Shown: positions 708 to 63,100, numbered from the stretch's first letter. The stretch: DNA of 64,000 nucleotides from Amoebophrya sp. A120 (GCA_905178155.1 CAJINV010000019.1:626475-690474); one strand, 5' to 3'. Program-made: numbers and translations. Notes: generated by a model from the letters alone, not told the origin.

Positions 708-3700
708 CTAGTAGCCCCTAGCCGGGCCCCCGTAATCATACGGCAGGTCCTATCCCGAGCAAAAACATCTCCACCCCATAGTTAAGTTGGGAAATCTGCT
801 AGACAAATCAACAAACTTTGGCTGTTCCGCATGACAAGTTTGGTGTCGTAGTGTAATCCTGTTTAGCTAGTTCAACAGCATAACACGTCTAGCCTCGTGT
901 GCGGATTGCAGCATCACAAATTCCGAGACACGAAGAAAGCATGCTTGTCATGGGGCTCCGCATGAGAAACATTATAAAAATGCGAATTTGCATTACAACT
1001 ACGGGGTGGGGACGTTTTTACATAGGATAGGTCCAGGCCCGTCGGGTGATCGTAGGCCGTCGGATAGGGGTTCGGCGGAAAGAGACTCGGCTGCCCGAAG
1101 GGGGTCGTAGGGCCTGTGGGTGGCAGCGGGACACTCGCAGTCGGCGGCGGCGTGTTCGCGAGAGATGAAGCCTGTTTTGATTGGAAGTCGTGGTCATGTA
1201 TAGTGGAAAAATGATCATGATGCCCAAGACGTTGTTTGACGTTGTTTCTTACTTTCTACTCCCTGCCAACAAGAACTACTTCCAGAAGATCTAGGATCTT
1301 CAAAAACCTCTATCATAAAGAAACTGTACCTGCTGCTGCAGCAATGCCGCGATGTTGGGCGGGAGATAAGGATCCTGCGACAGGCTCTGGACTTGCTGTA
1401 ACATGAGCAGGTTCTGCAGCAACGGACCGGTGCTCGCGGCCGAAGTGTCTAGATTGTAGTTCAGCTCGGCTAGTAGCTGCGCCTGCGCGTGGTGGAGCTC
1501 CGGTGCTGTGGGGGTGATTTTTGTTTTCGTTGTCGAGAGTAGAGGGAGATTGAAGTCTTGAAAGATATATAAAAAAATGCAGTTTGTCATGCGCAACAGT
1601 TGTAACTTGAATTTTAATACGCGAGGATATGAAATTCAAATCGCAAACCACTATTAAACAATCAATCTATACAGTTCGTGCTGGCGTGACTGCTGTTGTC
1701 GGTCGGCACACTGTAGTAAGACTGGTCCGACCCGTACGCATTTCCGCCCTTGTACGACCCCGCCCCTCCGGCACTGCTACCCTTGATGCCCGCCAACGCA
1801 CCCAGGGGCGGAGGTGGTCCACCCGCGCCTCCACTTGCGAAGCTGTTCAGCGGATGGTAGTTTCCATTGGCGTTGCTGCCGCTCCCATGATGGTACCCGC
1901 TGACCGAGTACCCTGGGTTACTGTTCGCGTAGTAGGAAGATGCAGAGGAAGATCCCCCGGTAGCCGACTGCGCCGAGTAGTAGCTGGCCGCGGTCGGGGG
2001 AGAGTTGTGGTAGCTGTACTTCGATGAATTGTAGCCCCCGCCGTAATTGCTGTAGCCATCGTACATACTGTTTTTGCTGTACTGCTTGCCCTTGCCCTTG
2101 AACACAGACGCGCCGCCCTTGTTGCTCTTGGTGTTTTTACCTGAAGGTTGTGGGGGATGAGAAACAGAAATCTACTATTGCCATGGTTCTATTTTCTTCG
2201 ATGGAGATCAAGAACATGCATCTAATTCCGGACGATTGCAGGTTGATGATACATGTTGTTCTAGCTCCGTAATGGATCAATCGATCCTCTGCAGCGAGAC
2301 AGCACCTTCTTGGCCATGTCTGTCAACATGCAAGGAACATTTTGCTCGTTGCACAGCTCGACGTAGTATCAAATCATAAGCAGCTAAAAACAATTATACC
2401 CTTGCTATTCGTTGGACTTGTTGACTTGGACCCCGCTGCGCTGTTGGCGTCGTCCACCATATCGCCAGTCTTGGCCCACTCGGCCTTCAGGTGCCACACA
2501 TGGTCTCGGCTGTCGTTCAAGCACACCAAACCCTCCCGGGTCGCGTCCAAAGCTTTCATGGCCTCCTCCTTGGATTCAAACTTCACAAACCCGAAACACC
2601 GGGGTCTGGTGTTGTTTTTGTCCAAGACCAGGTGGACGCGTTTCACCTTGCAGTGCTTGGAAAACTCGCGGTGCACGTCCTCCTCTGTGGCCTCCCAGGG
2701 GAAATACCTGCGAACAAAGTTTTGATTTGTCATGAAATTATGGTCGCAATGACTCAACTTGATTTTTTCATGAATCTTGTCAAGACAATTACGAATTTCA
2801 TGATTTTTGTCATGCATTTTGGACATCAACAACAAAACGCAGTACGCGATCAGCAGCGTTTGTCCTCCATTCGGTGGTGGCGTTCCCACATCGTGCATGG
2901 TTTCTTTCGGGGGGTGGTGGTGAATCACCGTCGTGGTCGCCACAGGCGTGGTGACGGCAGGTGGAGCTGTATGTAGGTGAAGTTGATTGTGAAGTAGAAT
3001 TTCAACTTATCAGAAGTCTTAGGCGCATGATTCCAAAAACTACCATCAGTGCGCCACAAGTGCAGCAGTCTTCCATGGCAAAAGAGTTGAAGAACAACGT
3101 CAAGCGTCAAAGTCCATAGTACTCTTAGACTTACCTTTCTTCTGCTCGGCATGATTTATGTCCACTCGGTTGTTATTGTTTGTCATGATCGCAGGCTTTT
3201 CCGGTTCGCCAGTTGCACTGGCCGCCGGGGAGGTTGGCGGCTTGTTGGCCGCTAGATCGTATCAAATGCAAAAGTGTCTGGGTCTGGAAGAGTCATGCTG
3301 TTTTTGCATGACACAGAAGGTCTGGCATGCAAGCTCTAGCATCACAGGTTTCGAGAAGCGTTCGCAATGCCGAATCCGCATGACAAATCCCCCACTTTGG
3401 TGACAGACAGTAGGCAACTTGTGCTGCCTATGCATGAGAGATTTTTCTGTGTTCTGAAATGCGCATCACAAGTTTGTATTCTTCCAGACCCAGACATTTT
3501 TGCATTTGATAGATCGGGGGTGCTGTGGGTCGTAGACGGGTCCGGAGTCCACGTTGCCGCAGCGCTGTCGGTATCCTGTGCAAAAGTATCGCACTCGTAG
3601 TAATTGCACTTATGCATTACAAATCCAGTTCCTAAGGCAAATCCGCATTACAAATTGAATTTGTAATGCTGAGCCAATTTGTATTGCAATTTATACTAGT

Positions 3701-3733
3701 ACGATGCTTTTGCATTTGATAGTCGGGTAACAT
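708..3733 (-). CDS. Multi-exon RRM-domain RNA-binding protein with Gly/Ser/Tyr- and Pro/Gln-rich low-complexity C-terminus
   Basis: ORF 2374..2943 has RRM motifs (FPWEATEEDVHREFSKHCKVKRVHLVLDKNNTRPRCFGFVKF). ATG at 3733. Frame continues across introners 3572-3721, 3260-3511 and 751-1029 and across GT-AG introns (e.g. 2967-3134, 1172-1328). Inferred stop at 708-710. Exon structure inferred by eye. Confidence 0.7.
751..1029. mobile_element. Introner family C
   Basis: TATCCCGAGCAAAAAC...GTTTTTACATAGGATA; TSD GGTCC/GGTCC. Confidence 0.9.
3260..3511. mobile_element. Introner family A
   Basis: ~31-bp TIR TATCAAATGCAAAAGTGTCTGGGTCTGGAAG; TSD GATCG/GATCG. Confidence 0.93.
3572..3721. mobile_element. 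Introner family B
   Basis: TATCCTGTGCAAAAGTATCG...CGATGCTTTTGCATTTGATA; TSD GTCGG/GTCGG. Confidence 0.92.
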
Positions 3734-6700: not shown

Positions 6701-7033
6701 GAACAGGCACTCCTCTGAAGAGCTTCTCTCCATAGCAACTCGTTTCGCAATTCTGATGAAGATGTTGAAATCTTGACGCAATACGGACACTTCAAACACG
6801 AGGACGTCGGAGCACGAGCCTGCTTCGTAGAAGCGGATCGATTTGCAAGGAGCAGAAGAAGGAAGAGGAGGTTCTTAAGTTTATTACACCTTTTTGATGT
6901 TTGTGTTTCTCGCGTACAACTCTTCTTTTCATTCCATTTGCGTTCTGAGGTATCTGTTGAATCTGTTCAGCAAATAGAATATCCGATCGGCACCTGGGAT
7001 AAGAGTCTCTGATTATCAAACTTCTCAACATCC

Positions 7034-8195
7034 TCACCCAGGCGATTGAAACTGCACGTGCTTCTGTTGTCGCTGCTGCGCAAATTCATTTTGATACAGC
7101 AGCTGCTGCTGCTGTTGCTGTTCGACAGGGTAGTTATTAGAAAACTCGTACCTATCGGCATCCCCTCCAGCCCCGCCAAAACTACTCCCTCCAGCCCCCG
7201 CTCCCCGCATCACCAAGCCTTCCAATTCTTTCCGCAAGGCCACCAACTGTTCCCGCTTCGCAATTATCCTGTCGCTGGTGCACACATTTTTTGCGTACAG
7301 CTCCGACGCGTTCGCCGAGCTATTCGCGATCTCCATCTCCGTCTGGATCCCGTCGAGCTTCAGGCTCAACCGATTCGTAAAGTCCGTGCGAAGGAGGTTC
7401 AAGTACGACTTGTCTGCCGCGTTCTTCAATCGGCGGTACTCGCCGTTTTGCTCCGGGATTCGCCTTATGAATTGCAAAAGTATAATCGTACTCGTATAAA
7501 TGCATTACAAATTTCCTCAGCGTGAGAAATGAAATTTGTAATGCTGATTTACCTTAAGAAAAATATACTGTGATGCATGATTGCAATACGAGTACGACAC
7601 TTTTGCACAGGATACGCCTTTCGAACAGCAGCGTTTGGAACACTTCGTCGAAGATCTGCTCGAAGTCGATTTTGTCAGCGAGTTTCGTGTATCAACTGCA
7701 AAAGTGTCTGGGTCTGGGAGAGTCCGAGATTTGTCATGCTAATCTGGCATGATTCTGAACTCTGTATTGCGCGGCCGCGAAGAGCTGCTACTCCCTGTCA
7801 TGCAAAAACGCAGTTTCTCATGCAGAATACGCAACTCAGAACCATGCCAAAAAACTTGTCATGCTTGGCAGCGCATTACAGTGAGCTCACTCTTCCCTTC
7901 CTAAGGAGGGAAGAGTGAGTGACGCAAGGACCTTGCATCACAAATTTCCAGACCCAGACATTTTTGCAATCCATATCGTGCCTACTTCGCCGAGAGAAAT
8001 CGGGGGACCGGAGTAGGGCGGGGGTGACGGTTGGTGGTTTTCCAGTTGAAATTGGTTATTGTGCTGATCGGGATTAAACAGCTGCTGCTGATAATTATAC
8101 TGGTGCTGCTGTAGTTGTTCCTGCTGGTTAGACTGCAGCTGCTGCTGGTAATTATCGTAGTGCTGGTACGTGGTCGTCGGTTGAAGCGCGTTCAT
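7034..8195 (-). CDS. Hypothetical protein with Gln-rich termini and a probable helical core, 3 exons
   Basis: ORFs 7938..8195 and 7034..7477 join through a short middle exon (KLADKIDFEQIFDEVFQTLLFER) after removal of introners 7690-7975 and 7466-7614, each with one TSD copy. No family recognised. Confidence 0.6.
7466..7614. mobile_element. Introner family B
   Basis: TIRs; TSD CGCCT/CGCCT. Confidence 0.92.
7690..7975. mobile_element. Introner family A
   Basis: TIRs; TSD TCGTG/TCGTG. Confidence 0.92.
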
Positions 8196-9017: not shown

Positions 9018-12000
9018 TCACCTCACCGCACTGGCCGCTGCCGCCATGGCTTCTTGTTCCCGGGCGGCTTTCGCGGCTAGATTTCGCTTGTGCAAGTCGG
9101 ATATGCAATGCAAAAGCATCGTACTAGTATAAATTGCATTACAAATTTTGGCAAGAAGGAAAGTGGAATCTGTATTGCTGTTTTGCCTTAGGAAAAACAT
9201 TTGTCATGCATATTTGCAATTAGTACGAGCACGATACTTTTGCACAGGATATCCGACTCATTCTCGTGCCGAATCAACGCGGCCGCGTGGGGGAATTTTC
9301 GCTGACACAAATAGCAGATGTACTCCCTCTCTTCCTCCGGTTCGGGGACATCCTCCGCATCGGACAGTTCCATGTCCTCCTCATCAGATTTATCAACTGC
9401 AAAAGTGTCTGAATCTGGAAGAGTGCCAGACTTGTCATGCAGGTTTTCCATGACCCATGAGGTCTGGCATATAGGACATAGCATGACAGAATCTGTGAGA
9501 GTTCTATCATGCCTATCCTGCATGAGAAACTGCCTCTCGATTAGGTCAAAAGTGGACAGCTTTTGGTAATCACGCAACACAGATTTGTACATGATTCAGA
9601 TTTAGCATGACAAGTCTGCATTCTTCCAGTCCCAGATGACACTTTTGCATTTGATAAGATTCGGACGCAAACACCGCGGGTTGCTTCTTCGTATTCAACA
9701 TCGTCCCAAGGTTCTTATCAACTACAAATATGTCTGGGTCTGGAAGGATACAAGGTGAAGGTTTGTCATGCTTGTCTGGCATGACTGAAGAGTTTGTGAT
9801 GCGTGTGCAAGAAGAGACCTCTTTGCTTGTCATTCCAAAACGCAGTTTTTCATGCGGAAAGCGCAACACTAAGAAGCGCAGATATTTCTCATGCTTGGCT
9901 GTGCATTTCAGAGCATTCACCATTCCCAACCCAGCATTACAAGTTTCCAGACCACCCAGACATTTTTGCATTTGATAGTTCTGCTGTGGCTGCTGACCCT
10001 GCGGCGCAAGAAGATGTTGCTGCTGTTGTACCTGCTGCTGCCGTAATTGCTGGTGGTGCGATGTCGCGTTGTAGATATCCTGAAAGTATCAAATGTAAAA
10101 ATGTCTGGGTCTGGAAGATTCTGACACTTGTCATGCACGTTTTGCATGAGCCCTGATGTCTGTGATGCATGCCCTAGCATCACAGATTTTTTGAGAGCTT
10201 CTTGATGCCTATTCCGCATGACAAATGCCCTCTCCGCGTAGCAAGAATTACATTCCCTTATGGTACTCATGCAATACAGATTTTTTTGGAATCCAAATCC
10301 AGCATCACAAGTTGCATTCTTCCAGACCCAGACACTTTTACATTTGATAGAAAGCTGACCGGGCCTCGAGAATCAGTAGGCGCCGGTTGGGGCGCGAACT
10401 GCGGCGACGGCTTCCCTAACGGAATCGAGTTCGAACCTGTGGAAAAGCTTGGCGGCGGACGCTGTTGCTGCTGCTGCTGCTGCGAGGGATTCATGTTCTG
10501 TTGCTGGGTCATTTGGTTGTTATACAGCATTGAACTACTATGCTGTTGCGGTTGGGAATTTGGCGACGGAAGCCTTTGCTGGTTCATCCGGTCATTCAAC
10601 TGACTCTGCTCCATCGACGCCGCGGCCATCGCGTTGCGCATACTGGAGGCGGTTGCGCTGAGAGGGGGCGGGGCAGTCGTGCTAGGGTCGTCAACAGCGC
10701 TTGTTGATGGCATAGTACTTGATGTTCCTGTCACATTTACTGGGAATGAAGCATCTTGCTGTAGCTGCGGGTTGTTGTACGTCGCATCTGTGCTATTCGG
10801 AGGTGACCCACCAGGCACGCCAGGTGGTGCACCAGTTTGCCCACTCTCCACCGTAGAGGCTGCAGCTCCAAGCTGCGGACTTTGCACCGGGTTCGGCTGG
10901 ATCACCAACCCAAATTCGTGCTTCCAGCTCGCCGGGAGATGCTTCAAGGGGAGTTTGGCACAATCCTCCTTGATCTTTCCCTTGGAGTCCACCTGGATGA
11001 GAACTCGCGATTCCTTCTCGTACTGAAAATAAATCGCGTTAGCGTCGAAGAAAAAACCCCGCTCGGAGTCGAAATACCTGTATAAAAGATTTTTTTTGCT
11101 TTGTATAATCTCCGAATTCTTGATCTTGTTTTGGAGCGGAATAAAGAGATTAGCCAATTATGCTGTGAAATGAATCGCTATAGTGATCGAAACAAACACA
11201 AAGACAAACAGGAAGAGTTCCTGCAGAAGATGAAATAGTACATTGTAAGCCCCTCGTTATCCACAGTGGTCCATATTGCCGTTTGCGTTTCATCGGGATT
11301 CCAAACGTTCATCAGTTTCCTCCCACGTGGTAGAGACTTATCCATCGGCTTACTATCGCCGGAAGAAGTAGATCCTGTTGCGCCGCCGCTGTTTCCACCT
11401 CCAGGCGGGACTAGAACCCCGGCTGAGGAAGCTGTGGCACCAGCGTTGGCTGAAGCTGCAGCTCCCCCGCCGCCGTTGATCCGACTGTTGCTCACGGCAG
11501 CCGTCGTTGTCGCCTTTGCACCATTCGCGCCCTCGAACTTCTTCAGATAAGAGGCCCACATGCTGCTATTGGTGTTCTCTTCCTTCTCTAGTATCGCAGA
11601 AACTGCTGCACTCGTAGAATTATTCCCTCCTGCGCTCGATGAAGATAAAAACGGGTTGGAGGGTCCACTTTTGTCGTCATTTTTCTCCTGCATCAATTTC
11701 AGGAGCTCCGGTTCCTGTGCGAGCAAGGAAATGTGTTTCTTCGGCAATTTTGTAGCCTGTAAAACCGCGGGTAAATTCGCCTGGTCTCTTTCAAACTGCA
11801 CCTGCGCGGAGGCTTTCGCAAAGTGCGGGTCGACAAAAGTGTCGTTGATTTTTGACTGTTTCTTATCCTGAGTAAAAACGTACCCACGCCAGAGTTGTAA
11901 TGCAGATTTGCAAAGACAGGAAGACTTGTCATGCGCATCCCCATGAGAGCCATTTCCAATCGCGTTTTGGAATTTGTGACGCTGTGAACAGGATGAGCAG

Positions 12001-13735
12001 ATGAATCTGTGACGCGGCTGCACTTGCCAACCTGCACTACACTGCAGAGTGCAACTTGTCATGCGTGACTCACAAAACTCCTAGGTTTGTGTTGCAAAAT
12101 CCCCATCGTGACTCTGGTGTGGGTACGTTTTTACTCAGGATATTTCTGCGACTTAAACCGGTCCATCACCAATTTCGCGGTGGGTTGGGACTTGCAGTAT
12201 CAACTGCAAAAATGTCTGGGTCTGGAAGAATGCATGTTTGTCATGCTTGTCTGGCATGACTCTTAAATCTGTCATGCACGTTACCCAAGAGCCCTATTTT
12301 TCTGTCATGCAAAAACGCAGTTTGTCATGCAGAATAGGCAACACATAGAAGCTCAGAAACTTGTCATGCTGAGCCAGCACTTGTTGCTTTCTCATGATAC
12401 GCCACCCGGCATCACAAGTTTCCAGACCCAGACATATTTGCAATCCATATGCAGGTGACAAAGGCAAACTGGTTCTGCATCTGCTCCATCTGCTGCTTCT
12501 GCCCCTTCGTGGTCTGCGTCTGCGGGTTTGGGGGCACAGGATTGCCCCACCAATCGTATTCCTGCGGCGGCTTGTGCTTTCTGCGAGTGGTTGTAGGTTT
12601 CAGTTTTACAACGACGTCAATGTCCACTTGATTAACAATCATGGGCAGCTTGTCAAGAACGAAAATGCGGTTTGATTAAATCGACATTCTACTGCGGTTC
12701 TTTCGGTTTATCAACACATTCGATTCCTCAAAAGTGTCTGGACGAAACAGAAGGTGAGAGGCAAAAAGGAGCTTTGTAAGTAAGTACATCATCTTCACGA
12801 ATAGTATGCTGTTGGGCACCAATTCCTCGAAAATTTTTCTGATATCTTTCTCGCTTATTTCTTCGATGTGCCGGAGCTTTATCGTGTCCGATTCTTTTTC
12901 AGCATTCACATCTGCCGCTCCACCGTAATTCACGAAATCCAGCGTCTGCCCGTTCACTTCCAGCTTCTTGGATTGACCCTGATAGAAGTACAGAATGAGT
13001 TTTTTTTTCATGCCAATGTATTAATTTTACAAACACCAGCAATTTTGTCATGCTCATGCCCACCAGCTGCACTAAAAGTTGTAAGAATAGGACCGCTTTG
13101 CAAAAGCCGCATTACAATTAGTGCATCTCTCTGCAAGAAAACAGTACCTCTGCAAAGCACTTCTTCGCCGCGTCGGCTGAGGGGAATTCGATGAAACACA
13201 GCGTGTTGCTGACGAACTCGACCCTGTCTGGAACACTATACCCACCCGCAATGGCCATGTCCGCCGCCGCGTCCTCGATGTCTTCCGGGGTTAGCCCCTC
13301 GCGCTTCTGCACGCGCGCGACCACCGTGGACTCCGTGGGCTGTCGGCCCTTTGTGCGTGCTGGTTTGGCCTGAGATGTTGGGTCATGATGGTGCCAGGTG
13401 TTGTAGGATGAGTTGTACTTCCCACCGCCGAACTTCGCCCCCCCTTTTCCACCGCCTCCTTTGTGGTCCATCATTGGAGCCCCACCCCATGAAGCTCCTT
13501 GGTTGTAATAATCCTGCTGCAGATGCCCCATATTGCCATAGCTGGGATTCCCATCCTGAATCAACCCCGGCGGCCCAATCGCTTCCCCCATGCCTTGCGC
13601 GCGGCCCATCTTCCCCTTCGACAGGGGAGCTAGTCCGCCGCCGGTTTTACCGACGCCACCATAGTAGGGGGACTGCCGGTTGCGGTTGTTTTTGCCGCCG
13701 TGGTACTGCTTTCCAGGTTTGCTGTTGTACATCAT
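9018..13735 (-). CDS. RBM5/RBM10-like splicing factor (RRM-like domains, OCRE domain, C-terminal C2H2 zinc finger)
   Basis: RRM-like segments (LCFIEFPSADAAKKCF; DTIKLRHIEEISEKDIRKIFEEL), OCRE-like aromatic repeat (MYFDSERGFFFDANAIYFQYEKE) and zinc finger YICYLCQRKFPHAAALIRHENESDLHKRNL, which is completed only after removing introner 9102-9251. No G-patch seen. Confidence 0.7.
9102..9251. mobile_element. Introner family B
   Basis: TIRs; TSD TCGGA/TCCGA. Confidence 0.9.
9391..9656. mobile_element. Introner family A (closest intact relative of the LINE-split copy)
   Basis: TIRs; TSD AGATT/AGATT. Confidence 0.92.
9716..9977. mobile_element. Introner family A
   Basis: TIRs; TSD GTTCT/GTTCT. Confidence 0.92.
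10087..10349. mobile_element. Introner family A
   Basis: TIRs; TSD GAAAG/GAAAG. Confidence 0.92.
11864..12142. mobile_element. Introner family C
   Basis: TIR TATCCTGAGTAAAAACGTACCCAC; TSD TTTCT/TTTCT. Confidence 0.92.
12198..12449. mobile_element. Introner family A
   Basis: TIRs; TSD TGCAG/TGCAG. Confidence 0.92.
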
Positions 13736-33871: not shown

Positions 33872-33973
33872 TACAAATCATCCATGTAGTCGTGTTTTAG
33901 TTGCACTTCTTTAGTCTTCAGATAAGTAAACAAGAAGAAATGCCAGCTGCAAATTGTTCAACGCACCGGCTAC

Positions 33974-50300: not shown

Positions 50301-52877
50301 CAACAACATTTGCAGACCAACCTGCGAATATCGGAAGAAAAAAGCGTCAAGGATTTTACATCACGAGAACCCCGAAAATAGGCGAAATGCGTTTTTATGA
50401 TTACATTTACAGTATCGATTCGCATTCCACAATCAAAAGGCATTTTTCAGCTCAATTGGAGGGTGAATTGCTATCGGCATCAGCAGATAGGCTGCCTATG
50501 CTGCTTTCAATTCTGCATCACGACAGGAGCAAAACTTGTGATGGAATTACCAGCTAACATGATGCTTTTGTAATGCAGAATCCGCAAAACAAAATCCTAT
50601 ACCGGGAACATCATGGCGGACCAGTTGTTGGCGATGCCATTCGCAAACGCGCCACTACTCGCCCCGACCACAAGAGCCGCACACGTCGCCTCCGCGAAGG
50701 AACCGAACAGATCTGCGCCCATACCGGCCACGTCCCCAACATTATCTCCCACGTTGTCGGCGATACACGCCGGGTTGCGCGGATCGTCCTCATCGAGCCC
50801 GTAGTCGTTCTTTCCGGAAAGATCCGCACCGACATCTGCAGCCTTGGTGTAGATACCGCCACCAACACGACCGAAGAGTGCGATGGAGGAACCACCTGAG
50901 AGTTTTTGCATAGATAGTGATTAAAAAGGAGTGGTTTGACAAGCTAGGGGGCCTGTTATTTGCAGCTGCGCCTGTATTTGAAACCGCTTCTGTCAGATGT
51001 GTGTTTATCGTTTGAGTTCTCCTTGCATCACTGACGACCTGGGAGGCCAAGTCAGGAAGCTATTTTTTCCTCACGAAGACGAGCTTTGCAACCTCATGGG
51101 GCAACTAAGAAGCGGCTCTTGCCTACTGGGACGGAGAGATCACCTCACACCAAATATTGGATTGGTGTGCGCGTCTTCAGTCGGCTCCCGAGTGTGATGT
51201 ATGAGGTGAAGTACCAATGGCAGATCAAGATCTCACTACACGACCTAAAGAAAACAGTCTCAGACCGAATTCGTGCAGTTCTTCATCACAGAGGCACGGC
51301 AAGCGTGCATCTTCGAACCAAGTAGCTTTTGGGTCATCATGCGCAGCACCTATACAGCCTTCAGCAATTAAGGGCCTTCACGGGCTATCCACAATCCAAC
51401 TTCGGAGAACCATCACCGCTTGCAGGGTGTGCAGGAAGCATAGTCTACAAAACCGTGTGCAAATAATGTCAGTCTACGTACGGGATTCTTTTGTGTCTTT
51501 CACAAGAAGCACGACGCACGTGCTACTCAGAAACTCACCAAGATTTGTTCCTCATTTCAACCACGGGCAAAAATACGCGATGTGCAACAGTCAGCTTCAT
51601 GTCACTTTCTTTCGAGTCTTTCACAGAGCACGCACAACGAGCGTGCCCCTCAGAAACTCACTAAGATTTGTTCACCATTCCGTCAACGAGCCAGTACGAC
51701 CCCAGCATGCGCTTATGACATTCAACCTACAAGAATAAGAACAAGACACCTACTTACAACGCAAGTATACCCAGTCCAAACCCAGCAATCGCGTCGAAGA
51801 TTGCGCTCTTGTCGCCGGCGAAGCCGAAGGGATCCGACGCGGACGTGTAGACCTGAATCAAAGCGTACAGAGCCAGCACTCCCAGAGAGACCAAGCTCAG
51901 CCCCATGACGCACCCGCCGCGGATGGCGACGTCGTACCCAGATGACAAATCCTTCCAGCACTCGTGCGCGGTCCTGACGTTCGTGTACACGGCGATTTTC
52001 ATACCGATGTAACCGGAGAGGATGGAGGTGATGGACCCGACGATGAAGGCGACCACCGTTCCGTAGTTCACCTGGGTCAGGATGCAGGAGAAGAGGATCA
52101 CGTAGACCGCCATGTACTGATATTCCTTCATCAAAAACGCGTTCGCGCCCTCCGCGATGTAGCCGCCGATCTCGGTCTATCAAATGTAAAAATGTATGGG
52201 TCTGGAAGAATCCAACTTGTCATGCTGATTTTGGATTCTAAAAAAATCTGTATTGCATGAGCAGCAAAGAGAATCCAAATTTTGCAGTACGGAAAGAGCA
52301 TTTGTCATGCGGAATAGGCATCAGGAAGCCCTCTAAAAACCTGTGATGCTAGGGCATGCATCACAGACTTGAGGAGTCATGCAAAATGTGCATGACAAAG
52401 CCGGCAATCTTCCAGACCCAGACATTTTTACAGTTGATACGGTCATGACGGAGAGAATCTTCTGGGTGTCCTCACCCAGCTGATCGGATTTTAGGAGTTT
52501 GTCCTTGTGTATCAAACGTAACAACGTCTGGGTCTGGAAGAGTGCATGTTTGTCATGCATATTTCTCATGACCCATGATGCCTGTAATGCATCACCTAGC
52601 ATCGCAGACTTTCAGAGGGCTTCCTGATGCACCTTCCGCATGAGAAGTGGCCTGTCCGTGTAGCACAAATTGCACCCCTCTCGCTGGTCATGCAATACAA
52701 ATTCTTTTAGAGTCCACAAAAAGCATGACAAGTTGCAATCTTCCAGACCCAGACATTTTTGCATTTGATATTGTGCCCGTTCATCTTCACGTTCCGGAGA
52801 AAAACGCACTCCTTCGCGGCCCAGCCCAGGCCCAAAAGGCACGGGGCCACGATGAGCCCGTCGATGAGGGGAGTCAT
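47358..52877 (-). CDS. VP1: Vacuolar-type H+-translocating pyrophosphatase (K+-dependent type by the GNTTAA motif)
   Basis: [100 protein letters not shown] and [17 protein letters not shown]. Six introners plus GT-AG introns. Confidence 0.96.
47494..47772. mobile_element. Introner family C
   Basis: TIRs; TSD GCTTG/GCTTG; interior similar to 751-1029. Confidence 0.92.
47866..48024 (-). other. Canonical GT-AG intron with family-B introner interior
   Basis: Joins K-G|[11 protein letters not shown]. Contains GCATGACAAATGGAATTTTTCATGCTG, one mismatch from the interior of 49780-49931. Confidence 0.8.
48139..48284 (-). other. Canonical GT-AG intron retaining a perfect 5-bp direct repeat and TAT/TA-like ends
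   Basis: Sense strand TCAGG-TATAG...CCTA-TCAGG (plus strand CCTGA at 48138-48142 and 48284-48288). Confidence 0.8.
48341..48602. mobile_element. Introner family A
   Basis: TIRs; TSD GTGGG/GTGGG. Confidence 0.92.
49169..49317. mobile_element. Introner family B
   Basis: TIRs; TSD CCGGA/CCGGA. Confidence 0.92.
49780..49931. mobile_element. Introner family B
   Basis: TIRs; TSD GCACG/ACACG. Confidence 0.9.
52178..52439. mobile_element. Introner family A
   Basis: TIRs; TSD CGGTC/CGGTC. Confidence 0.92.
52510..52770. mobile_element. Introner family A
   Basis: TIRs; TSD TTGTG/TTGTG. Confidence 0.92.
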
Positions 52878-54119: not shown

Positions 54120-57100
54120 TTAAGTTACTGCCTCGCTGTTCGTTTTCACGACGTTACTGCTAGTGTAGTAATGCACTCTTAATCTTTCAATGATCCATTC
54201 GATATTTTCCGCGCGTCCCTCCGCTATTTCCACCCATTCTTCACCGGGCTCTTCCTGTTCATTGCGAATCCGCCGGTAAACTGGTGTATGGATTGCAAAA
54301 GTGTCTGGGTCTTGAAGATTCCGGGGCTTGTGATGCATATTTTGTATGATCCATGATACAGGTAATGCATGATCTAGCATCACAGATTTTTAGAGGGCTT
54401 CCTGATGCCTATTCGGCATGAGAAATTCCCTCTCCGCGTAACACAAACTGGCGGACTCCTGTTGCTGGTCACGCAATACAGATTTTTTTGGAATCCAAAG
54501 ACAGCATGACAAGTTGCAATCTTCCAGACCCAGACATTTTTGCAATCCATATGGTGATTCTTCGCAGTGTGCATGTCTACAATGGGGGACAACGGGGACA
54601 AGAAAAGCGGTACCTTGGACGGCGATTTTCCCAAGAGACCGCTCGCTTGCCCAGAAGCTGCTGTCAACGGGGAAACAAACTTGCTGCTGCTCCAGGGGGT
54701 GTTTCCGCCACCAACTGCGCCGTCATGATCTCCCTTCATTTTGTTCATCTTGGAAGGACTGACTTTCAACGGGGACAGCTGGCGCTTCGATGGACTCAGG
54801 GAGGAAAAATCGTCCATGGGATTCGACGATGCTGAGCCACCAGGTCCCCCTATCTCGGACGTGTGGTAGTCGTGCCCAGGCTGCTCCTGCACCACGAAGA
54901 ACTGCTGCGATGGGAGGCGCTTCCCCGGAGACGCCTCGAGTGGAGACAGGGTGATCTTGTATTTCCCTGCGTTTGGTCCACCAGCTGCTCCTAGATGATG
55001 CTGCTGTAATCCAGGTGCCTGTGCGGGTAGAGCTCCTCCTCTTGTCGACCACTTATTCGCCGGCGCATAAGACTGCATCATGATCGGTGGCTGCTTGTTC
55101 GGACTGGTTAGCGAAGGTATTCGGTGCACAATTGGAGGACTTGCATTTATTCCATGCTGATCTTGTTCATCCTGAGCCGACCCTTCTCGCGACCGTGACG
55201 CGTTCGTGTAGAGCGAAGTTTCGGCAAGAACTAGTTCCCGCCCGTGCACAACTTGGAGGTTCTGATCGCTGTAGCTGCCATCATCATATTCCTGATCGCC
55301 AGAAACAGCAGCTGCGGCAGCGTCTTCGGTGAGAAACGTTGCGCACGATGAGCCACCTTCCGCCTGTTCACCATTTTCGCCTCGCTGCTGAGAATGTTGG
55401 TCTTCGTTCTCGGTGTATTCGTGTGAAGAGTTCATCCCACCATCGTGGTCATCCCCTTCCCCACCACGTGACGACGTCCCAGAGACCGACTGCTGGTCAT
55501 GGTCGATCACCATGGAACCGGACAAATCCACGACCCCGCTGCGCATTCGCCGCTGCTTTTGCACGACACCGGAAGAGACGTTTTCCTCATCCAAAAGTGC
55601 CAACTGCTGGTGCGCAGTGTCGTTGTTTGGATTGTAAAAGCTGAAGGATTCTTGGTCATCTTCTTCCGGGTTGTCGTTGTTCCTCCGCCCGCCCTGATGG
55701 CCGGCGCGCTGATGTTGTGGAAACTGGTTTGGTTGTTCCTGCAGTAGTATCAAATGCAAAAATGTCTGGGTCTGGAAGATTCCAACTTGTCATGCTAAAT
55801 CTCAATCATGCAAAAATCTGTGTTGCATAATTCCCAAAAGCTGTCCACTTTCGACCATGTTGGGAGGAAGTTTCTCATGCAGGATAGGCATGGCATAGGC
55901 CTCACAGAGTCTGTCATGCGAAGTCCCGCATTCCGGACCTCATGAGTCATGGAAAGACTGCATGACAAGCTTACACCCTTCCAGACCCAGATATTTTTAC
56001 AGGTGATAAGTGACCCGCTCAATGTTGTCACTGTCGTTGTGCAACCAGCTTCGTCCCAGGTCGTGTCCAAATTCGTGTTGGTCAGAGAATTCTGTCCGTA
56101 GAGCAACTCGTTTTTATTCCCCAAAGAACCACCCCCAAGCCCGCTCTTCAGAGAGGATTTCCTGCTCTTATCAACAACAGGCTGAAAGAGATCCAACGCC
56201 AGACCATTGATTCCCGCTGCGTTGCCTTGCTGCCCCCCGGAAACCTGCACGCCGCCAGCAGCCCCCGCATTTCCACCACCATTCGCCATACTATTGATCA
56301 TTTGCGCCCGCTGAAAAATCTCCGCGTTGTCGTTCTCTTCCCCGGGGGCGAAAAACACGCGTAAAACACTCGTTTGCTCCAATTGCTGCTTTTGATTCTG
56401 TATGTCTTCTATTTTCCTTATCCGCCGCACCGCGTCCTGGTACAGCCGGTTGAAGACATTTCCCGGGTCGCGGGAGAGAAAATCCCCAAGGCCAGACTGC
56501 CGAAACATTTCCTCGTAGTTCGATGTTTGCTTATTTTCCATCCCGTTGCTGGATTCCATGTTCTCTTTCAGCCTCACTAGCCGCATCGACATCTCGTTGA
56601 TGATCAAGCGTAACCGCGAGATCGTCCTACTAGCTTCTTCCTTCTCCCTTTCCAACTCCTGCAGCCTCTGGAGCAATTCCTTCCGGGATTCCTTCGCGTA
56701 GTCCGTGCTGAGATTTTCGATCGTCGTGTCCAAAATCGCTTTCAATTGCGACTCGTGATCCAATTGATCCGGGTCGAGAGTCTTGATATCCCCACTTGTC
56801 TCCGACGCGGATTGATCATCGTTTTTCCGGTCTTTATTATGTTGACCATTTTCATTCGCTCCTGAACCTGATCGGTTGCTGGATTGTGGACGGCTGGGGT
56901 TTTGGGAATCATACTTGAGACGTTGCTGGGCGCTGTTATCGTCTTCCCCGTCGCGGTTATCGTCGGGCTCGGAGCCATCGCTGTTGTAGCCCCGCATCAG
57001 CTCCGGGTCAGAACCGTCCCAGCGCGGAACGGTGGCGCCCTGAAAGTGAAAGAATTTGTTTGACAAAAGCATCGTCTTTATGTAGTTGTAAACCACTCTT

Positions 57101-60100
57101 TAGGCAGGCGCTCGCGCACAGCATATTTCTCATACAGATCCTTCACAAACAGCAGCGAAATCTGTACCTGTTGTGTCTGTCTGAACGTGTCTTCCAGCTG
57201 TCTGATTTCGCCTTCCAAAGCCGTTACCAACGACTGCGCCTCCAACTTCTGTTGCGTTTCCACATCTAGTTTCGAAAATGTATTCCGCAGCTGCGTTTCC
57301 GTTGCATGCAGCTGCTCCTGCATGTCGTCCGTCAATTGCGACCACATGTTCGATATCAAATGTAAAAATATCTGGGTCTGGAAGATTGCCAGCTTTGTCA
57401 TGCACATTTTGCATGACTCCTGATGTCTGTGATGCGTGCCCTAGCATCACAGATTTTGTGAGGGCTTCCTGATGCCTATACCGCATGACAAATGCTCTCT
57501 GCGTGTAGCAAAACTTAGACTCTCTTTGCTGCTCATGCAATACAGATTTTTTTTATAATCCAAAATCAGCATGACAAGTTGCATTCTTCCAGACCCAGAC
57601 ATTTTTACAATCCATATTCGACCGCCCGAGGTTCAGGCCCCGCGTGACAGTGTTCGTGTGGCTAGTTGGTTCCTGAATCGTCGCTGGCAACTGACTATGC
57701 ATTGCAAATGCAGGAGCGCCCTCGTAGTAATTGCAACACTGCATGAGAAGTCTCAGCTCTTCGGCAACTCAGCATTAGAAATCCGAAATGCTCTACTTGT
57801 GATAAAATTTGTCATTCACTTGCTAGTAGCACGATCATGCCTTTGCAATCCATAACCACCGTTGTTCATCAAATTTCCCCCAGCGTTCGACCCGCTCGCC
57901 GGCGTCCAAAACTGATCTCCTTTTGACATTCTGAATCCGGAGGAGGACACGGTTGTTTCGTACATCTTCCGGTGCCTCGCGAGCTGGATCCTGAGGTCTT
58001 TACTGTGCTTCTCCTGGTTTTCCAACATGGAGGACACCGCATCCTTATGCGCCTCCAAGTCGACAATGTCAACCTGGGAATCAAGTAACGCTTGACGGAG
58101 TTTGAGAAACAAGTCGCGCACCCACGGCTCGACGACCCTGTCTTTCACATTACTCGTCGCAGTGTCGTTGTTATTCTCATTGGCCGCGGCGGAGGAGGAG
58201 GATGCTGCAGGTGGTTGTTGTGTGGGATGGAAGTTTAGAGTTGTCGCCGTGTTATTCAAGCTCTTGTTCGCCGCGGTATTTTGAAGATTTTCATCATTCG
58301 TAGCAGTCGCGGTACTACCGTTAGTTACGCCGACGTTCAGGATTTCTCCAAGGAGAGAAACCAGATTTTTCTGCCTTTCCCGCCTCTCCTTCCGGAGGGT
58401 TTCCGACAAAGGTTCCTTGGATCCAAACGTCGCTTGCACCCCCGTCCAGGTCCACTTCGCTTTCGAACGGTCCATCGTTGCAGCGTTAGTATTCGTGTTA
58501 TTTTCGTGGTTACCTGCAACTGCACCATCACCTCCCGACTCCCGAGCGGTTGTGTTCCAGGATTTGTTGGTTCGGTTTTCCTCCAGCGCTCGGTTGTCGT
58601 TGTTTCCATTCATCATAGAACTGTTATTGGTCCGCCAAGAACTGCTGCTCTGCTGGTTGTTAGTACCTGGATCTCCTAGACCCGGCCCTGGCCCTGTTCC
58701 TCGCTTCTTCACCGCGTGCCTCCTTGCTCTTTCCAAATGTTTTCTCTCCAACTCCTGCCTTACCCTCGTGCTTGACGGCGGAAACGTCGCGCGCTGCCAC
58801 TGCGGCACAAACCCTTCTTCCCCTTCCTGCAGACTAGTGTCCGGGATCCACGACTGGTGCTTTCTGTTCCTTTCCGCCATACGGGAAAAAAGTCTCGGGT
58901 CGCCGCCGAGAGAACTGGCCGTGGAAGAGAGTTTTGACGAATCATCGGCGTGGTCCCGTCGTAGATGGCCTTCGTGGTCCAAATCCATACTGTTCTCTTC
59001 CTGTCCAAACGCCGCGGTGTGGGTCCCTTGGCCGTCAAAATTGTGTAATTTCCGTAGAATCAGTTGGTGTTTCTCGTGCTCGCTGTACCCGAGTTTCCGC
59101 AGAAGGCGCGCATTTTTCAAGTCCGTTGCCGCGTGAAGCAGTGGATGCGCGCGGGTAATAACAAGTCCGTAGGAATCGACGGTGCGCTTGATCTCGGATT
59201 TTTTCGCGTCAGGATCATTTATTTCGTCAGCGTCTTCAACGCCGGGCTTTCTTCCTCGACTCCAGAAATTACCCTTCGCATTCGACGCGCTCCTTCTCCG
59301 ACTGCTCGCATTGCTCGCCCGTGTCTGTTCCAAAAACTCATTCGTTTTATGCAGTAAATCCTCCGCGTGCTCGCCCCAGGCCGCTTTAATGTCGTCCCGA
59401 AGGCTATGCTGAGTAGAAACGTCCCCACCCCATACTTGTCATGCAGATTTGCAGTTACCGGAAGATTTGTAATGCGCATCCCCATGAGAGGCATTTCCAA
59501 ACGTATTTTGGACTTTGTTATGCTGTAAACAGGATGACTAGATGGATCGATTTGTGTTGCGGCTGCACTTACTAAACTGCACTACACTACAGCGAGGAAC
59601 TTGTCATGCTTGACTCCCAAAACTTCTCGATTTGTGTTGCGAGATCCCCATCTTGACTATGGGGTGGGTACGTTTTTACTCAGGATAGAGGCCAGCGGAG
59701 CGGTTCCGCGGATGGCGGTTGTAGATGGTTCGGTTTTTCCGGAGCCCATGCATTTTATTCCGCCGGGAAGATTTATTTCTGTTGCTTCTTACTCCTGTTC
59801 TCCCGTCGCCGACACTGCCAGAGGCTGATGATGACATCGTGACTCCGAAGAAGGTTCCGTGCGGCGTTTTACTATTGTCCTGTTGTGTCGTGTCGTAGAA
59901 ACAAGATGAACTTTGCTCTTCCTCATTTTCCGTGTTTTCGCCATGACGATGATCTTGCGGACCACCGACACTGCCATCGAGAAGATGATTATGCTCCACA
60001 TCATTATAGTTGCTCACGTCATCTTCATCGACCAAATCCCCGCGCTCCGAACTGGAACTAGACTGCGGCAACGCGATAAGATCATTGTTCAACATCTCCC

Positions 60101-63100
60101 CCTCCTCGGACGAAGCAGACTTCGAACAACTTGACGCGCTGCTGGTCTTCGCCGCGTCAATTGCCCGATGAAAACCGGCGGAATGCGCGTCGCGCTTTTT
60201 GTTTTCTTGGTCGCTTGTTGTTCCCATAGCTAATTTCTCCTTTTCCGCTGTTAAAGCGGTCCATGTCGTCAAAGATTGCGCCATCCGTTTTTTCCCAGGT
60301 GGGAAATTTTTGCTGCTTTTATTCTGTTGAACAAACCCAACCGCGGTGTTGTTCTTCTCTGCGACTGCGGTCCGCGAAAACTTCTTCCAGAGCAGATTTT
60401 GCGTCAACCTCTCGTCCAAAATCCGCAGAGCGTCCTGACTTTCCGTGAAGACCGACTGGCGCTCGTCCCAGAACCTGGTCATGGTGAACCGACTGCTTTT
60501 ATGCAATGCAAAAGTTTCGCTATCGTACTAGTATAAATTGCATGACAAATTCCCTCAGCACCCTGTAATGCTGATTTTTTACTTTGAGAAAGAGATTTGT
60601 AATGCATAAATGCATATGCACCGAGTACGATACTTTTGCAAAGGATAGCTTTGGTTCATCATGTTGCTTTGGTTCGTCCTTTGGTAGGTGGTCCGGTTGT
60701 ATCAAATGTAAAAATGTCTGGGTCTGGAAAAATGCAACTTGTGATGCTGCATTTGGTTTCCAAAAAAATCTGTATTGCATGAGCGGCAAAGGGAGCGCTT
60801 TTTTTGCTACGCGGAGATGGCATTTGTCATGCGGAATAGGCATAAGGAAGCGCTCTAAAAATCTGTGATGCTAGGCCATGCATTACGGGCATTATGGATC
60901 ATGCAAAATATGCATGACAAATCTTGCAATCTCCCAGACCCAGACATTTTTACATTTGATAGGTTGTGCTGAGACGACATCCCCGTCCCGCGGAACATTT
61001 TCGAGGAGGTGTTGGTTATGTTCGCTTGGGCGGGAAAAAACGCAACGTTATTGATGCTCCCGCCCGCGCCTCCCGCACCAGTCCCGGAGGAGAAATTGGT
61101 TCGGTTCGGGAAAAAATTCTCCGTTTTGGAATTCCGCCGCGACGCCGGGTTGTAGTAGTTGTTATTATATCTCGTGCTGTTCTTCGACATAGCGGAATGT
61201 TGGTCTTTATCAAATGTAAAAATATCTGGGTCTGGAAGGTTCTGAGACTTGTCATGCACGTTTTGCGTGAGCCATGATGTCTGTGATGCATGCCCTAGCA
61301 TCAGAGATTTTCTGAGGGCTTCTTGATGCCTATTCCGCATGACCAATGGCCTCCCCGCGTAGCAAGCATTACGCTCCCTTTGCTGCTCATGCAATACAGA
61401 TTTTTTTGGAATCCAAATTCAGCATCACAAGTTTCATTCTTCCAGACCCGCCAGACATTTTTACATATGATAGTCTTGATCGTTGTCGTTGATGTCGTGG
61501 GCGGCGACACTAGAAGACATGTCCGCACTGTATGGCTTGCTCAGATGTTACAATCTCAAACGTTACAATAGAATCTGGAATTTGTTTTGCATGAACAGCA
61601 TGAGTACCATACAGAGACTTGGGCTTTTCGCAATACAAATTTCGTCAGAATCTCATGGGGTTTGGGGCTCCGAAACTTGTCATGCGCGCTCCTTTGGGAG
61701 TAGGCCAGATGTTGCGGATTTCGCAACACAAATTCCAAATTATATTGTAACGTTTGAGATTGTAACACCTGAGCGGGTTATACGCTGCCGTCCTGGTCAT
61801 CTTTGTCAACATTCTCATTACCATAAGGAACACCATGGCTGTGATTCTCGTTCTGCTCCTCAGCACCACCACTTCCGGGACGCCGCAAGGCGTTGCTGCT
61901 TCTCGCTGTGATCTCGAAAAACTTCCGTCTCGTGACCACCAGACTGCTATCAAATGCAAATATGTCTGGGTCTGGAAGAGTCATGCTGCTTTTGCATGAC
62001 ACAGAAGGTCTGGCATGGAAGCTTTAGAATCACAGGTTTCGAGAAGCTTCCGCAATGCCGAATCCGCATGACCAATTTCTCATTTTGGTGACAGAAAGTG
62101 GGCAGCTTTTGCTGCCTACGCATGAGAGATTTTTATGTGTTGTGAAATGCGCATCACAAGTTTGCATTCTTCTAGAGCTGGATATATTTGCAATGCATAA
62201 CTGCCATCGCAACTCTCCTCGAAGTCCCAAGGCCCGTCGGCGAGAAAATCCTCCTGGTTCCTCGGATCTTCAAAGTGCGCAGCAAGTGCGTTGCTCGTCC
62301 CAGCAGCGCTTGTTTCCTGACCGGGAATAAACGACCCTTCTTGTTGGCTTTCATACTGCAGTTTTTCGATCTTCCTTTTCTTCGACGATTTATTTTTCAA
62401 TCTTCTACTTTTCTTCGGAAACAAGGGCGGGCTGCTTTCCGTCACCAAGCTTCTCTCGATTTCCGTCGCGATTTCTTCCTTCATCCTCTTCCCAGTTGCG
62501 GAATTCGCGTTAGAAAGTTGCGCATTTGACAGCACTCCAGATTCACTGTACTCATAATCGGAGCTGTTGCCATCTTCTTCCTCCGTATCGGAATTTTGAT
62601 TTTCGCCATGATCTTGCTCTTCGTTACTCCGCATGGTCTCCTTTCCGAATTTCGCGTAGAATTCGTTGTTCAGCTGCACAATGTTCTTCAAATTTCCCAC
62701 GTTGTTTTCGAGGATGATCACCCGGTTTTCCAAATTCGTATTTTCCTCTTCCAAAACTTGCTTCTCGTCCTCCAATAGACCACATTTATCCTTCAATTCA
62801 TTTTGGATCTCCGCATATCAAATGCAAAACTGTCTGGGTCTGGAAGATTCCCAGGTTTGTCATGCATATTTTGCATGACCAATGACGCCTGTAATGCATG
62901 CCCTAGCATCCCAGATTTTTAGAAGGCTTCCTGATGCGTATTCCGCACGAGAAATGACCCGCCCGTGTAGCACAAACTGGACTCCCATTGCTAGTCATGC
63001 AATACAGATTTTTTTGGAATCCAAAGACAGCATCACAAGTTACCACCTTCCAGACCCAGACATTTTTGCATTTGATACCGCAGATTCGCGCTCCATCTGC

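What the first reader, a model, noticed from the sequence alone, without database searches (positions are those of the whole stretch)
751..63077. 57 TIR/5-bp-TSD elements act as precisely removable introns without GT-AG: a non-canonical excision system
Seen: about one element per 1.1 kb, at least 10 sequence families, ends almost always TAT...ATA, 5-bp direct repeats of arbitrary sequence. They interrupt conserved motifs of otherwise intact genes (V-PPase, QNG1, ABHD, the zinc finger), and in the junctions I translated, removing element + exactly one TSD restores the frame. Sense-strand TSDs such as CGATC, AATCT, CTTTC and CAACC allow no GT-AG or GC-AG register. Established: introners with inverted and direct repeats are reported from Amoebophrya, so the class is not new; to my knowledge the excision mechanism is unresolved. 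Inference: removal relies on TIR pairing plus a fixed 5-nt offset, either at RNA level or as IES-like DNA excision.
Basis: partly seen in the sequence, partly recalled or inferred. Interest (0 to 1): 0.88.

Follow-up and report, generated by a model that had tools for sequence, protein, structure and literature searches.

The report
Transposon introns spliced without GT-AG
Dozens of small transposon-like inserts break this protist's genes and are missing exactly from its spliced transcripts despite lacking normal intron ends; the class is already published, and what is added is that the cut likely falls at a fixed distance from the insert's ends, probably made by a modified spliceosome.

Summary
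Confirmed: 57 TAT...ATA elements with 5-bp direct repeats interrupt minus-strand genes. All 14 element joints listed in RNA-like contigs skip element + 5 nt; a DNA-like run keeps the elements, so IES-like DNA excision is not supported. The class is published: Amoebophrya introner elements (Farhat 2021, PMC7789003). The scan also noted a similar intron in another genome (e1-7695377). Added here: five elements with diverged repeats share only one cut register, N|TAT...ATA-NNNN| on the sense strand, 1 nt outside the 5' TIR and 4 nt outside the 3' TIR. With n=5, some shared register arises by chance with P=0.11. The donor lines up with GTAT, which starts 5 of 6 canonical introns here. Repeat identity is not needed, orientation is free, and no G or AG bias is seen in 95 elements from other loci. 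The layout parallels Euglena nonconventional introns. Most likely a hairpin-guided, U1-less spliceosome (about 0.5); rival, a separate endonuclease/ligase route (0.33). One element has grown to 6.35 kb around an RT-like insert and still restores the frame. Already known class; the mechanism is now testable.

The parts
751..1029 (.). Element, family 3, exact 5-bp repeat
3260..3511 (.). Element, family 1, exact repeat
3572..3721 (.). Element, family 2, exact repeat
7466..7614 (.). Element, family 2, exact repeat
7690..7975 (.). Element, family 1, exact repeat
9102..9251 (.). Element, family 2, in the C2H2-like motif; repeats differ at sense position 3; no RNA laid
9391..9656 (.). Element, family 1, exact repeat
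9716..9977 (.). Element, family 1; the only one of 57 that could be read through in frame
10087..10349 (.). Element, family 1, exact repeat
11864..12142 (.). Element, family 3, exact repeat
12198..12449 (.). Element, family 1, exact repeat
15111..21460 (.). Composite family-1 element, 6350 bp; halves at about 15111-15300 and 21370-21460; repeats differ at position 2; removal + 5 nt keeps the host frame (predicted, no RNA laid)
16299..21386 (-). 1695-aa ORF inside the composite element, with a (TGA)n tail near 15300; likely a non-LTR retrotransposon
   Evidence: RVT_1 E=0.04, below cut-off; no hit
21526..21781 (.). Element, family 1; repeats differ at position 1
22299..22443 (.). Element, family 2; sense 5' end TGC instead of TAT, exact repeat
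22507..22760 (.). Element, family 1, exact repeat
22790..23039 (.). Element, family 1, exact repeat
23344..23605 (.). Element, family 1, exact repeat
23671..23926 (.). Element, family 1, exact repeat
25452..25705 (.). Element in a tandem gene repeat; repeats differ at positions 3-5
26014..26237 (.). Element in a tandem gene repeat; repeats differ at positions 3-5
26576..26799 (.). Element in a tandem gene repeat; repeats differ at positions 3-5
27052..27303 (.). Element, family 4; repeats differ at position 1; laid, no joint listed
27347..27653 (.). Element, singleton; laid, no joint listed
27690..27868 (.). Element, singleton; sense 5' end TAG; repeats differ at position 3; laid, no joint listed
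29462..29670 (.). Element, family 5, in the QNG1-like gene; RNA joint skips 214 = 209 + 5
29721..29983 (.). Element, family 1; RNA joint skips 268 = 263 + 5
30034..30295 (.). Element, family 1; RNA joint skips 267 = 262 + 5
34092..34334 (.). Element, singleton; joint skips 248 = 243 + 5; register constraint r>=1
34390..34598 (.). Element, family 5; joint skips 214 = 209 + 5
34893..35037 (.). Element, family 2; joint skips 150 = 145 + 5
35099..35350 (.). Element, family 1; joint skips 257 = 252 + 5
35662..35972 (.). Element, singleton; joint skips 316 = 311 + 5
38832..39094 (.). Element, family 1; joint skips 268 = 263 + 5
39234..39461 (.). Element, singleton; joint skips 233 = 228 + 5; constraint r=4 or 5
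39776..39935 (.). Element, family 2; joint skips 165 = 160 + 5
40985..41247 (.). Element, family 1; laid, no joint listed
41296..41549 (.). Element, family 1; repeats differ at position 3; laid, no joint listed
42715..42920 (.). Element, singleton; joint skips 211 = 206 + 5; constraint r=4 or 5; spanned whole by a DNA-like contig
43824..44096 (.). Element, family 1; joint skips 278 = 273 + 5; constraint r=2-4
45322..45579 (.). Element, family 1, exact repeat
47494..47772 (.). Element, family 3, in the V-PPase gene; joint skips 284 = 279 + 5
48341..48602 (.). Element, family 1; RNA loose ends match removal + 5 nt
49169..49317 (.). Element, family 2, inside the H_PPase match; removal + 5 nt fits the contig arithmetic
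49780..49931 (.). Element, family 2; RNA piece starts at 49933, constraint r<=4 (indirect)
52178..52439 (.). Element, family 1; removal + 5 nt fits the contig arithmetic
52510..52770 (.). Element, family 1; removal + 5 nt fits the contig arithmetic
54287..54551 (.). Element, family 1, exact repeat
55748..56008 (.). Element, family 1; repeats differ at positions 1-2
57354..57616 (.). Element, family 1, exact repeat
57696..57854 (.). Element, family 2; repeats differ at positions 3-5; spanned whole by a DNA-like contig
59405..59687 (.). Element, family 3; repeats differ at position 5
60500..60647 (.). Element, family 2, exact repeat
60700..60961 (.). Element, family 1, exact repeat
61208..61472 (.). 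Element, family 1, exact repeat
61531..61782 (.). Element, family 4; repeats differ at position 4
61948..62199 (.). Element, family 1, exact repeat
62816..63077 (.). Element, family 1, exact repeat
47866..48024 (-). Canonical GT-AG intron (donor GTAT) holding a decayed family-2 copy
48139..48284 (-). Canonical GT-AG intron, donor GTAT
48862..49032 (-). Canonical GT-AG intron, donor GTAA (inferred from contig arithmetic)
49624..49743 (-). Canonical GT-AG intron, donor GTAT (inferred from contig arithmetic)
50172..50602 (-). Canonical GT-AG intron, donor GTAT
50896..51770 (-). Canonical GT-AG intron, donor GTAT

Best explanation
These are transposon-like inserts flanked by 5-bp repeats that stay in the DNA and are removed from the transcript together with exactly one repeat, likely at a fixed position measured from the paired ends and probably by a modified, U1-less spliceosome. 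Shown: elements, repeats, +5 removal in spliced contigs, retention in a DNA-like run, both orientations, tolerance of mismatched repeats. Inferred from five elements: on the sense strand the intron is N5-TAT...ATA-N1N2N3N4, so the 5' cut lies 1 nt outside the TIR and the 3' cut 4 nt outside. Inferred, untested: the TIRs fold into a stem that brings the ends together; the 5' TIR supplies positions +2 to +4 of the organism's normal GTAT donor, with +1 free; the 3' site is set by distance from the stem, not by AG; an invariant A at -7 or -5 is a candidate branch point. Spread is inferred to be DNA transposition in trans by an unknown DDE-type enzyme.
For: 14 of 14 listed element joints skip length + 5; four more elements fit by contig arithmetic and one by loose ends. 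One X3 contig lacks elements and GT-AG introns together. Allowed registers r (letters of the upstream repeat kept in the exon): 1-5, 4-5, 4-5, 2-4, 0-4; only r=4 fits all. At r=4, +2 is T in 57 of 57, +3 A in 56, +4 T in 55; 5 of 6 RNA-supported canonical donors are GTAT. All 9 top A120 splice-site pairs in Table S4 of PMC7789003 have T second, and all 9 for A25 start TT, where the IR starts TTA-purine-purine. Nearly all spliceosome proteins plus U2, U4, U5, U6 are reported for A120, U1 not detected. Terminal TIR pairs are predicted in most elements. Terminal triplets changed at 2 of 264 positions against 13 of 220 repeat mismatches in 44 homology-defined copies (P 0.016 or lower). Fritillaria shows that a spliceosome can take transposon-derived non-canonical introns.
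Against: The register rests on five elements, one of them indirect; chance of any shared register is 0.11, of r=4 in particular 0.039. All genes here lie on one strand, so 'sense' is not separated from 'chromosome strand'. No preference for G at +1 or AG at -2/-1: GT-AG at r=4 in 0 of 53 here and 3 of 95 against 2.2 expected in other loci; the normal spliceosome reads both (PMC11585973 passages). A stem that pairs TAT would have to open for U6 to bind. Donor +5 is C in 31 of 57. TAT is invariant partly because it was a search anchor. Table S4 placements may reflect the aligner. In 39234, spliced exactly, the terminal stem is not predicted. No lariat, circle or machinery data were obtained.
Confidence: 0.5

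Rival explanations
1. Same RNA-level removal and same 1/4 register, but by a separate hairpin-measuring machine (endonuclease plus ligase, or a circle-forming route as proposed for Euglena nonconventional introns), not by the U2/U6 core.
For: Repeat letters, which form both splice junctions, are unbiased. Both orientations occur (18:11 and 5:5). The architecture matches Euglena: paired inner motif, short 5' spacer, longer 3' spacer (3 and 5-6 nt; PMC12501133 abstract and section 8), with excision as circles. U1 snRNA not detected.
Against: The inferred donor lines up with the canonical GTAT donor of the same genes, and the A25 ends look donor-like too. A canonical intron holds a decayed element and starts GTAT. 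No such enzyme is identified.
Confidence: 0.33
2. RNA splicing removes element + 5 nt but the register varies from element to element, as the original paper states.
For: PMC7789003 calls the sites variable and places IRs 1-5 nt from them. Five constraints share a register by chance with P=0.11. At 42715 the paralog residue matches the downstream repeat copy, which the RNA does not use.
Against: Exact repeats make the site look variable to any aligner. All five informative joints admit r=4, which is also the register that aligns with GTAT and with Table S4.
Confidence: 0.12
3. The joints are reverse-transcriptase template switches across a hairpin between direct repeats (a known artefact, recalled), or cryptic GT-AG sites are used, or the genes are pseudogenes.
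For: Hairpin plus direct repeat is the usual signature of that artefact (recalled). 31 of 57 elements have an in-frame GY-AG pair within 10 nt of the ends. All RNA evidence is from contigs of one sample set.
Against: Retention would break the frame in 56 of 57 elements, including V-PPase. Joints are exact where only 1 letter fits both sides (39234, 42715). 7 of the 14 joint-confirmed elements have a cryptic in-frame GY-AG option, yet the listed joint is +5.
Confidence: 0.03
4. The elements are cut out of the DNA, like ciliate IESs, in some life stage.
For: TIRs, TA-rich ends and precise removal resemble IESs (recalled). The life stage of X1 is unknown, contigs drop rare variants, and only 15 of 1821 joints were shown.
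Against: X1 contigs run from unique flanks into the elements and span 42715 and 57696 whole with no differences, while 42715 is absent from RNA-like contigs. Element-free contigs also lack GT-AG introns. The 1/4 register is asymmetric.
Confidence: 0.02

Closest known systems
Introner elements (IEs) of Amoebophrya A120 (Farhat et al. 2021, PMC7789003; seen: abstract, sections 10, 11, 12, 16, passages, supplement legends and Table S4 rows; figures not seen)
   Same: IRs start TAT, seven looser letters, then a run of A; 3-5 nt direct repeats with a 5-bp example; mean non-canonical intron length about 240 nt; many families; RNA-seq-supported non-GT-AG introns.
   Different: Nothing at the level of the class. 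The paper calls the splice sites variable and the border unknown; here five diverged repeats point to one register. [quoted passage not shown]
Euglena nonconventional introns (PMC12501133; seen: abstract, section 8, discussion; PMC11282704 section 6)
   Same: No GT-AG, paired inverted ends, TSD-like repeats, fixed spacers with the 3' spacer longer, MITE-like origin, unknown machinery.
   Different: Code N3-CDG...CH'G-N5-6|R against N1-TAT...ATA-N4 here; purine preference at the exon start there, none seen here; circles shown there, untested here; unrelated lineage.
Fritillaria borealis non-canonical introns (PMC11282704 section 6; PMC13326754 abstract; the 2019 paper is not held)
   Same: TIR/TSD transposon-derived introns removed efficiently without GT-AG.
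   Different: Preferred ends (AG-AC, AG-AT), U1 present, duplicated U2AF; here both junction dinucleotides are largely free.
Aureococcus, Micromonas and Polarella introners (passages in PMC7789003, PMC9860276, PMC11282704)
   Same: Non-autonomous DNA elements that create introns and are enriched in genes.
   Different: They use canonical or GC-AG sites; these need none.
Ciliate IESs (recalled)
   Same: Transposon-derived, TA-rich ends, precise removal restores genes.
   Different: Removed from DNA; here the DNA-like run keeps the elements.

Membership tests
Amoebophrya A120-type introner elements | IR starts TAT, seven looser letters, then at least three A | tested here: met
   TAT at both ends in 55 of 57; A at TIR positions 11-13 in 50-55 of 57
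Amoebophrya A120-type introner elements | 3-5 nt direct repeat over the exon/intron boundary | tested here: met
   5 nt; 39 of 57 exact
Amoebophrya A120-type introner elements | Repeated families, no transposase in the short copies | tested here: met
   Clusters of 29, 10, 4, 2, 2; 145-311 bp
Amoebophrya A120-type introner elements | Spliced from RNA with non-GT-AG ends | tested here: met
Amoebophrya A120-type introner elements | Sequence identity to the published family models | not testable with these tools
   Models and genome not held; the source of the window was not determined
U2-type spliceosomal intron | GT/GC donor and AG acceptor | tested here: not met
   0 of 53 GT-AG and 1 of 53 GC-AG in any register
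U2-type spliceosomal intron | Donor positions +2 to +4 like the organism's canonical donors | tested here: inconclusive
   TAT at r=4 matches 5 of 6 canonical donors; small n, register inferred
U2-type spliceosomal intron | Lariat with branch A; U2/U6 dependence | not testable with these tools
   No raw RNA reads covered these exons
Euglena nonconventional intron | N3-CDG...CH'G-N5-6|R code | tested here: not met
   Ends are TAT...ATA with 1 and 4 nt spacers
Euglena nonconventional intron | Paired ends at fixed, unequal distance from the cuts | tested here: inconclusive
   Folding and five register constraints agree, P=0.11
Euglena nonconventional intron | Excision as a full-length circle | not testable with these tools
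   Contigs only
Ciliate-type IES | Element absent from DNA of the expressing nucleus | tested here: not met
   X1 retains the elements; one run, stage unknown
MITE of a named DNA transposon superfamily | Cognate autonomous element with the same TIRs and a transposase | tested here: inconclusive
   The only long copy holds an RT-like ORF, no transposase hit; TIR pattern absent from viral contigs

The most novel reading that the evidence does not exclude
This lineage uses a general hairpin-ruler splicing code, N|TAT...ATA-NNNN|, that ignores both junction dinucleotides. It arose independently of the Euglena code and makes any such transposon, in either orientation and even 6 kb long, a perfect intron on insertion, run by a U1-less spliceosome or a new enzyme.
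Probability: 0.5. Interest if true: 0.75.

Novelty: already known. Interest (0 to 1): 0.5.

Why it matters
The published account leaves the intron border and the machinery unknown for about 30,000 repeated introns in A120. A fixed 1/4 register says where to look for lariat or circle junctions, which letters to mutate in a reporter, and how to annotate the genes. It also explains why insertions at arbitrary 5-mers in coding exons cost little. If the spliceosome does this, it splices without G+1, without AG and without U1; if not, it is a second case, beside Euglena, of a structure-measuring route. Diverged target-site repeats give a cheap genome-wide test on existing data.

Tried and rejected
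C enrichment at repeat position 1 (25 of 53, p=0.0009; 24 against 15.4 phase-matched, p=0.007 uncorrected) did not repeat in 95 strand-called elements out of 159 from other loci (26 of 95): rejected. A G bias at donor +5 (14:5, p=0.064) reversed there (16:28): rejected. Paralog residues as a register test were mixed: 27690 and 41296 fit r>=3, 42715 points to r<=1 against its RNA joint, and the others gave nothing; not counted, so the 8-constraint P is not used. The shared inner motif (200 of 216 hits in elements) sits at no single distance from the 3' site across families, so it was not taken as a branch point. My first idea, that the half element at 21460 is a hybrid canonical intron, was dropped when its other half was found. 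Raw RNA runs X10 and X12 did not cover these exons; no listed holder was on record as RNA, and X3-X6 are judged RNA because they lack GT-AG introns. No joint was listed for 27052, 27347, 27690, 40985, 41296 (3 joints not shown). No whole genome was held, so snRNA genes and a transposase could not be sought. The RT-like ORF found no relatives. TIR pattern in viral contigs: none. Two Current Biology papers are not held.

Full report
Observation. A strict search for TAT...ATA segments with an exact flanking 5-mer and at least 10 of 14 complementary end letters gave 37 elements, and 0 in each of 20 Markov shuffles. An end profile, self-BLAST and inspection added elements with diverged repeats or ends. 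The final set is 57: 53 single, 3 in a tandem gene repeat, 1 composite. 55 end TAT...ATA and 39 have exact repeats. The 53 fall into groups of 29, 10, 4, 2, 2 and six singletons, in both orientations relative to the genes (18:11 and 5:5 in the two large groups). All host frames are on the minus strand. Removing element + 5 nt gives ORFs of up to 1599 aa over 13 elements. H_PPase and Q_salvage are firm Pfam matches, and the H_PPase match runs on across 49169 (profile 319-419, then 419-561). The hydrolase and zinc finger rest on weak hits and motifs. 53 of 57 elements lie in ORFs of 150 aa or more, which cover 66% of the spliced DNA. Retention would break the frame in 56 of 57. No element of 53 allows GT-AG in any register.

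RNA and DNA. One search listed runs holding 7000-13000. I laid X1, X3, X10, X12 on 42101-62100 and X3-X6 on 27030-44300. X10 and X12 did not cover the exons. X3-X6 are only guessed to be RNA, but X3 contigs lack GT-AG introns as well as elements, so they are spliced. In one search, 13 of the 15 joints shown remove an element (18 elements lie in that stretch; 3 joints were not shown); the other two are a 60-nt skip inside element 27052 and an element-to-element cross-match. One search adds 47494. All 14 skip length + 5. Loose ends at 48341 and the piece arithmetic of one contig (49169, 49780, 52178, 52510) agree. Seven of the 14 have an in-frame GY-AG pair within 10 nt that is not the listed joint. 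X1 behaves as DNA: its contigs run from unique flanks into the elements and span 42715 and 57696 whole with no differences. No empty-site joint was among the 15 shown of 1821. This is one run of unknown stage, and contigs drop rare forms.

Where the cut falls. With identical repeats the cut cannot be placed. Five elements with diverged repeats constrain r, the number of upstream-repeat letters kept in the 5' exon: 34092 r=1-5, 39234 r=4-5, 42715 r=4-5, 43824 r=2-4, and 49780 r=0-4 (indirect, from a piece that starts at 49933). Only r=4 fits all. The intron is then N-TAT...ATA-NNNN. If registers were independent and uniform, some shared register would occur with P=0.11 and r=4 with P=0.039, so this is a good lead, not proof. 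Two things favour r=4 independently. It aligns TAT with +2 to +4 of the canonical donors, 5 of 6 of which are GTAT. And all 9 top A120 splice-site pairs in Table S4 of PMC7789003 have T second, though aligner placement may shape that table. Exact removal where the repeats differ at two of five letters shows that repeat identity is not what the machinery reads. A paralog test was mixed and is not counted.

What is and is not constrained. In 44 copies defined by homology, terminal triplets changed at 2 of 264 positions while repeats differ at 13 of 220 (P=0.016 at half rate); the one decayed copy found lies inside a canonical intron. Repeat letters are free. Two biases seen in the window (C at position 1, G at donor +5) failed in 95 strand-called elements of 159 from loci of one other assembly (strand called from ORF length; the search pattern fixed part of one TIR). 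GT-AG at r=4 occurred 3 times against 2.2 expected. The terminal TIR pairs are predicted in most elements but not all.

Mechanism. Shown: insertion with a 5-bp duplication, retention in DNA, exact removal from RNA. Inferred: TIR pairing brings the ends together and the cuts are measured from it. I favour a modified U2-type spliceosome (0.5): the donor matches the canonical one at +2 to +4, the A25 elements also begin like a donor (TTA-purine-purine), nearly all spliceosome parts but not U1 are reported, and tunicates give a precedent. Against it, the normal spliceosome reads G+1 and the 3' AG and no trace of that preference is seen. A separate route like that proposed for Euglena, whose introns have the same layout with 3 and 5-6 nt spacers, gets 0.33; variable registers 0.12; artefact or cryptic sites 0.03; DNA excision 0.02.

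A natural test case. The half elements at 15111 and 21460 are one family-1 element of 6350 bp, split by a 6-kb insert with a 1695-aa ORF and a (TGA)n tail. Removing it + 5 nt keeps the host frame. The ORF has a weak RVT_1 match over the catalytic region (E=0.04) and no relatives found, so a non-LTR retrotransposon is likely, not shown. No RNA was laid there.

Comparison and novelty. The elements meet every feature of the A120 introner elements that I could test (PMC7789003: abstract, sections 10-12 and 16, passages, supplement legends and Table S4; its figures, which may show the offsets, could not be seen). I did not determine the window's source. PMC12130899 (passages) reports diverse A120 introner families. 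Searches found no paper stating a fixed register, but they cover only CC-licensed PubMed Central and bioRxiv, and two relevant Current Biology papers are not held. Verdict: real, already known class; the fixed 1/4 register is a probable addition that makes the open question of mechanism directly testable. Interest 0.5.

Noticed in passing
window 15300-21386: A 6-kb insert with a 1695-aa RT-like ORF and a (TGA)n tail sits inside a family-1 element; it holds no short elements itself, which suggests a recent insertion.
   Followed up: partly
all element families; e.g. window 9391-9656, 49169-49317: A shared inner motif, GCA(T/A)NACA and its complement, occurs at 15.9 per kb in elements and 0.3 per kb outside, across unrelated families; possibly a transposase or other protein binding site.
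   Followed up: partly
window 47866-48024: A canonical GT-AG intron contains a decayed family-2 element and starts GTAT; it may be an element that turned canonical.
   Followed up: partly
window 14584-28658, 38374-42113, 42591-46147: Three paralogous genes of unknown function (no Pfam hit in the pieces scanned) carry elements at different positions, so insertion followed duplication.
   Followed up: partly
window 24102-24825 and 25415-27000: Coding tandem repeats (about 156 bp and about 560 bp units); the longer unit was duplicated with its element inside.
   Followed up: no
window 59645-59687 and 55748-55826 (runs X12, X10): Raw RNA reads from other loci carry a lone element end between foreign flanks (about 370 and 70-180 reads), as if an unpaired end is not removed; strain and locus unknown.
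   Followed up: no
window 32734-32818 and 33790-33871; 51486-51556 and 51607-51679: Short repeated segments without TAT...ATA ends, outside the 57 elements.
   Followed up: no
canonical introns 47866-51770: The six canonical acceptors lack a clear pyrimidine tract and are A/C-rich, two ending AAG; a branch point close to the 3' site is possible.
   Followed up: no
L001-L080: The same TIR family occurs densely in contigs of one other assembly; element lengths peak near 150 and 250-270 bp.
   Followed up: partly
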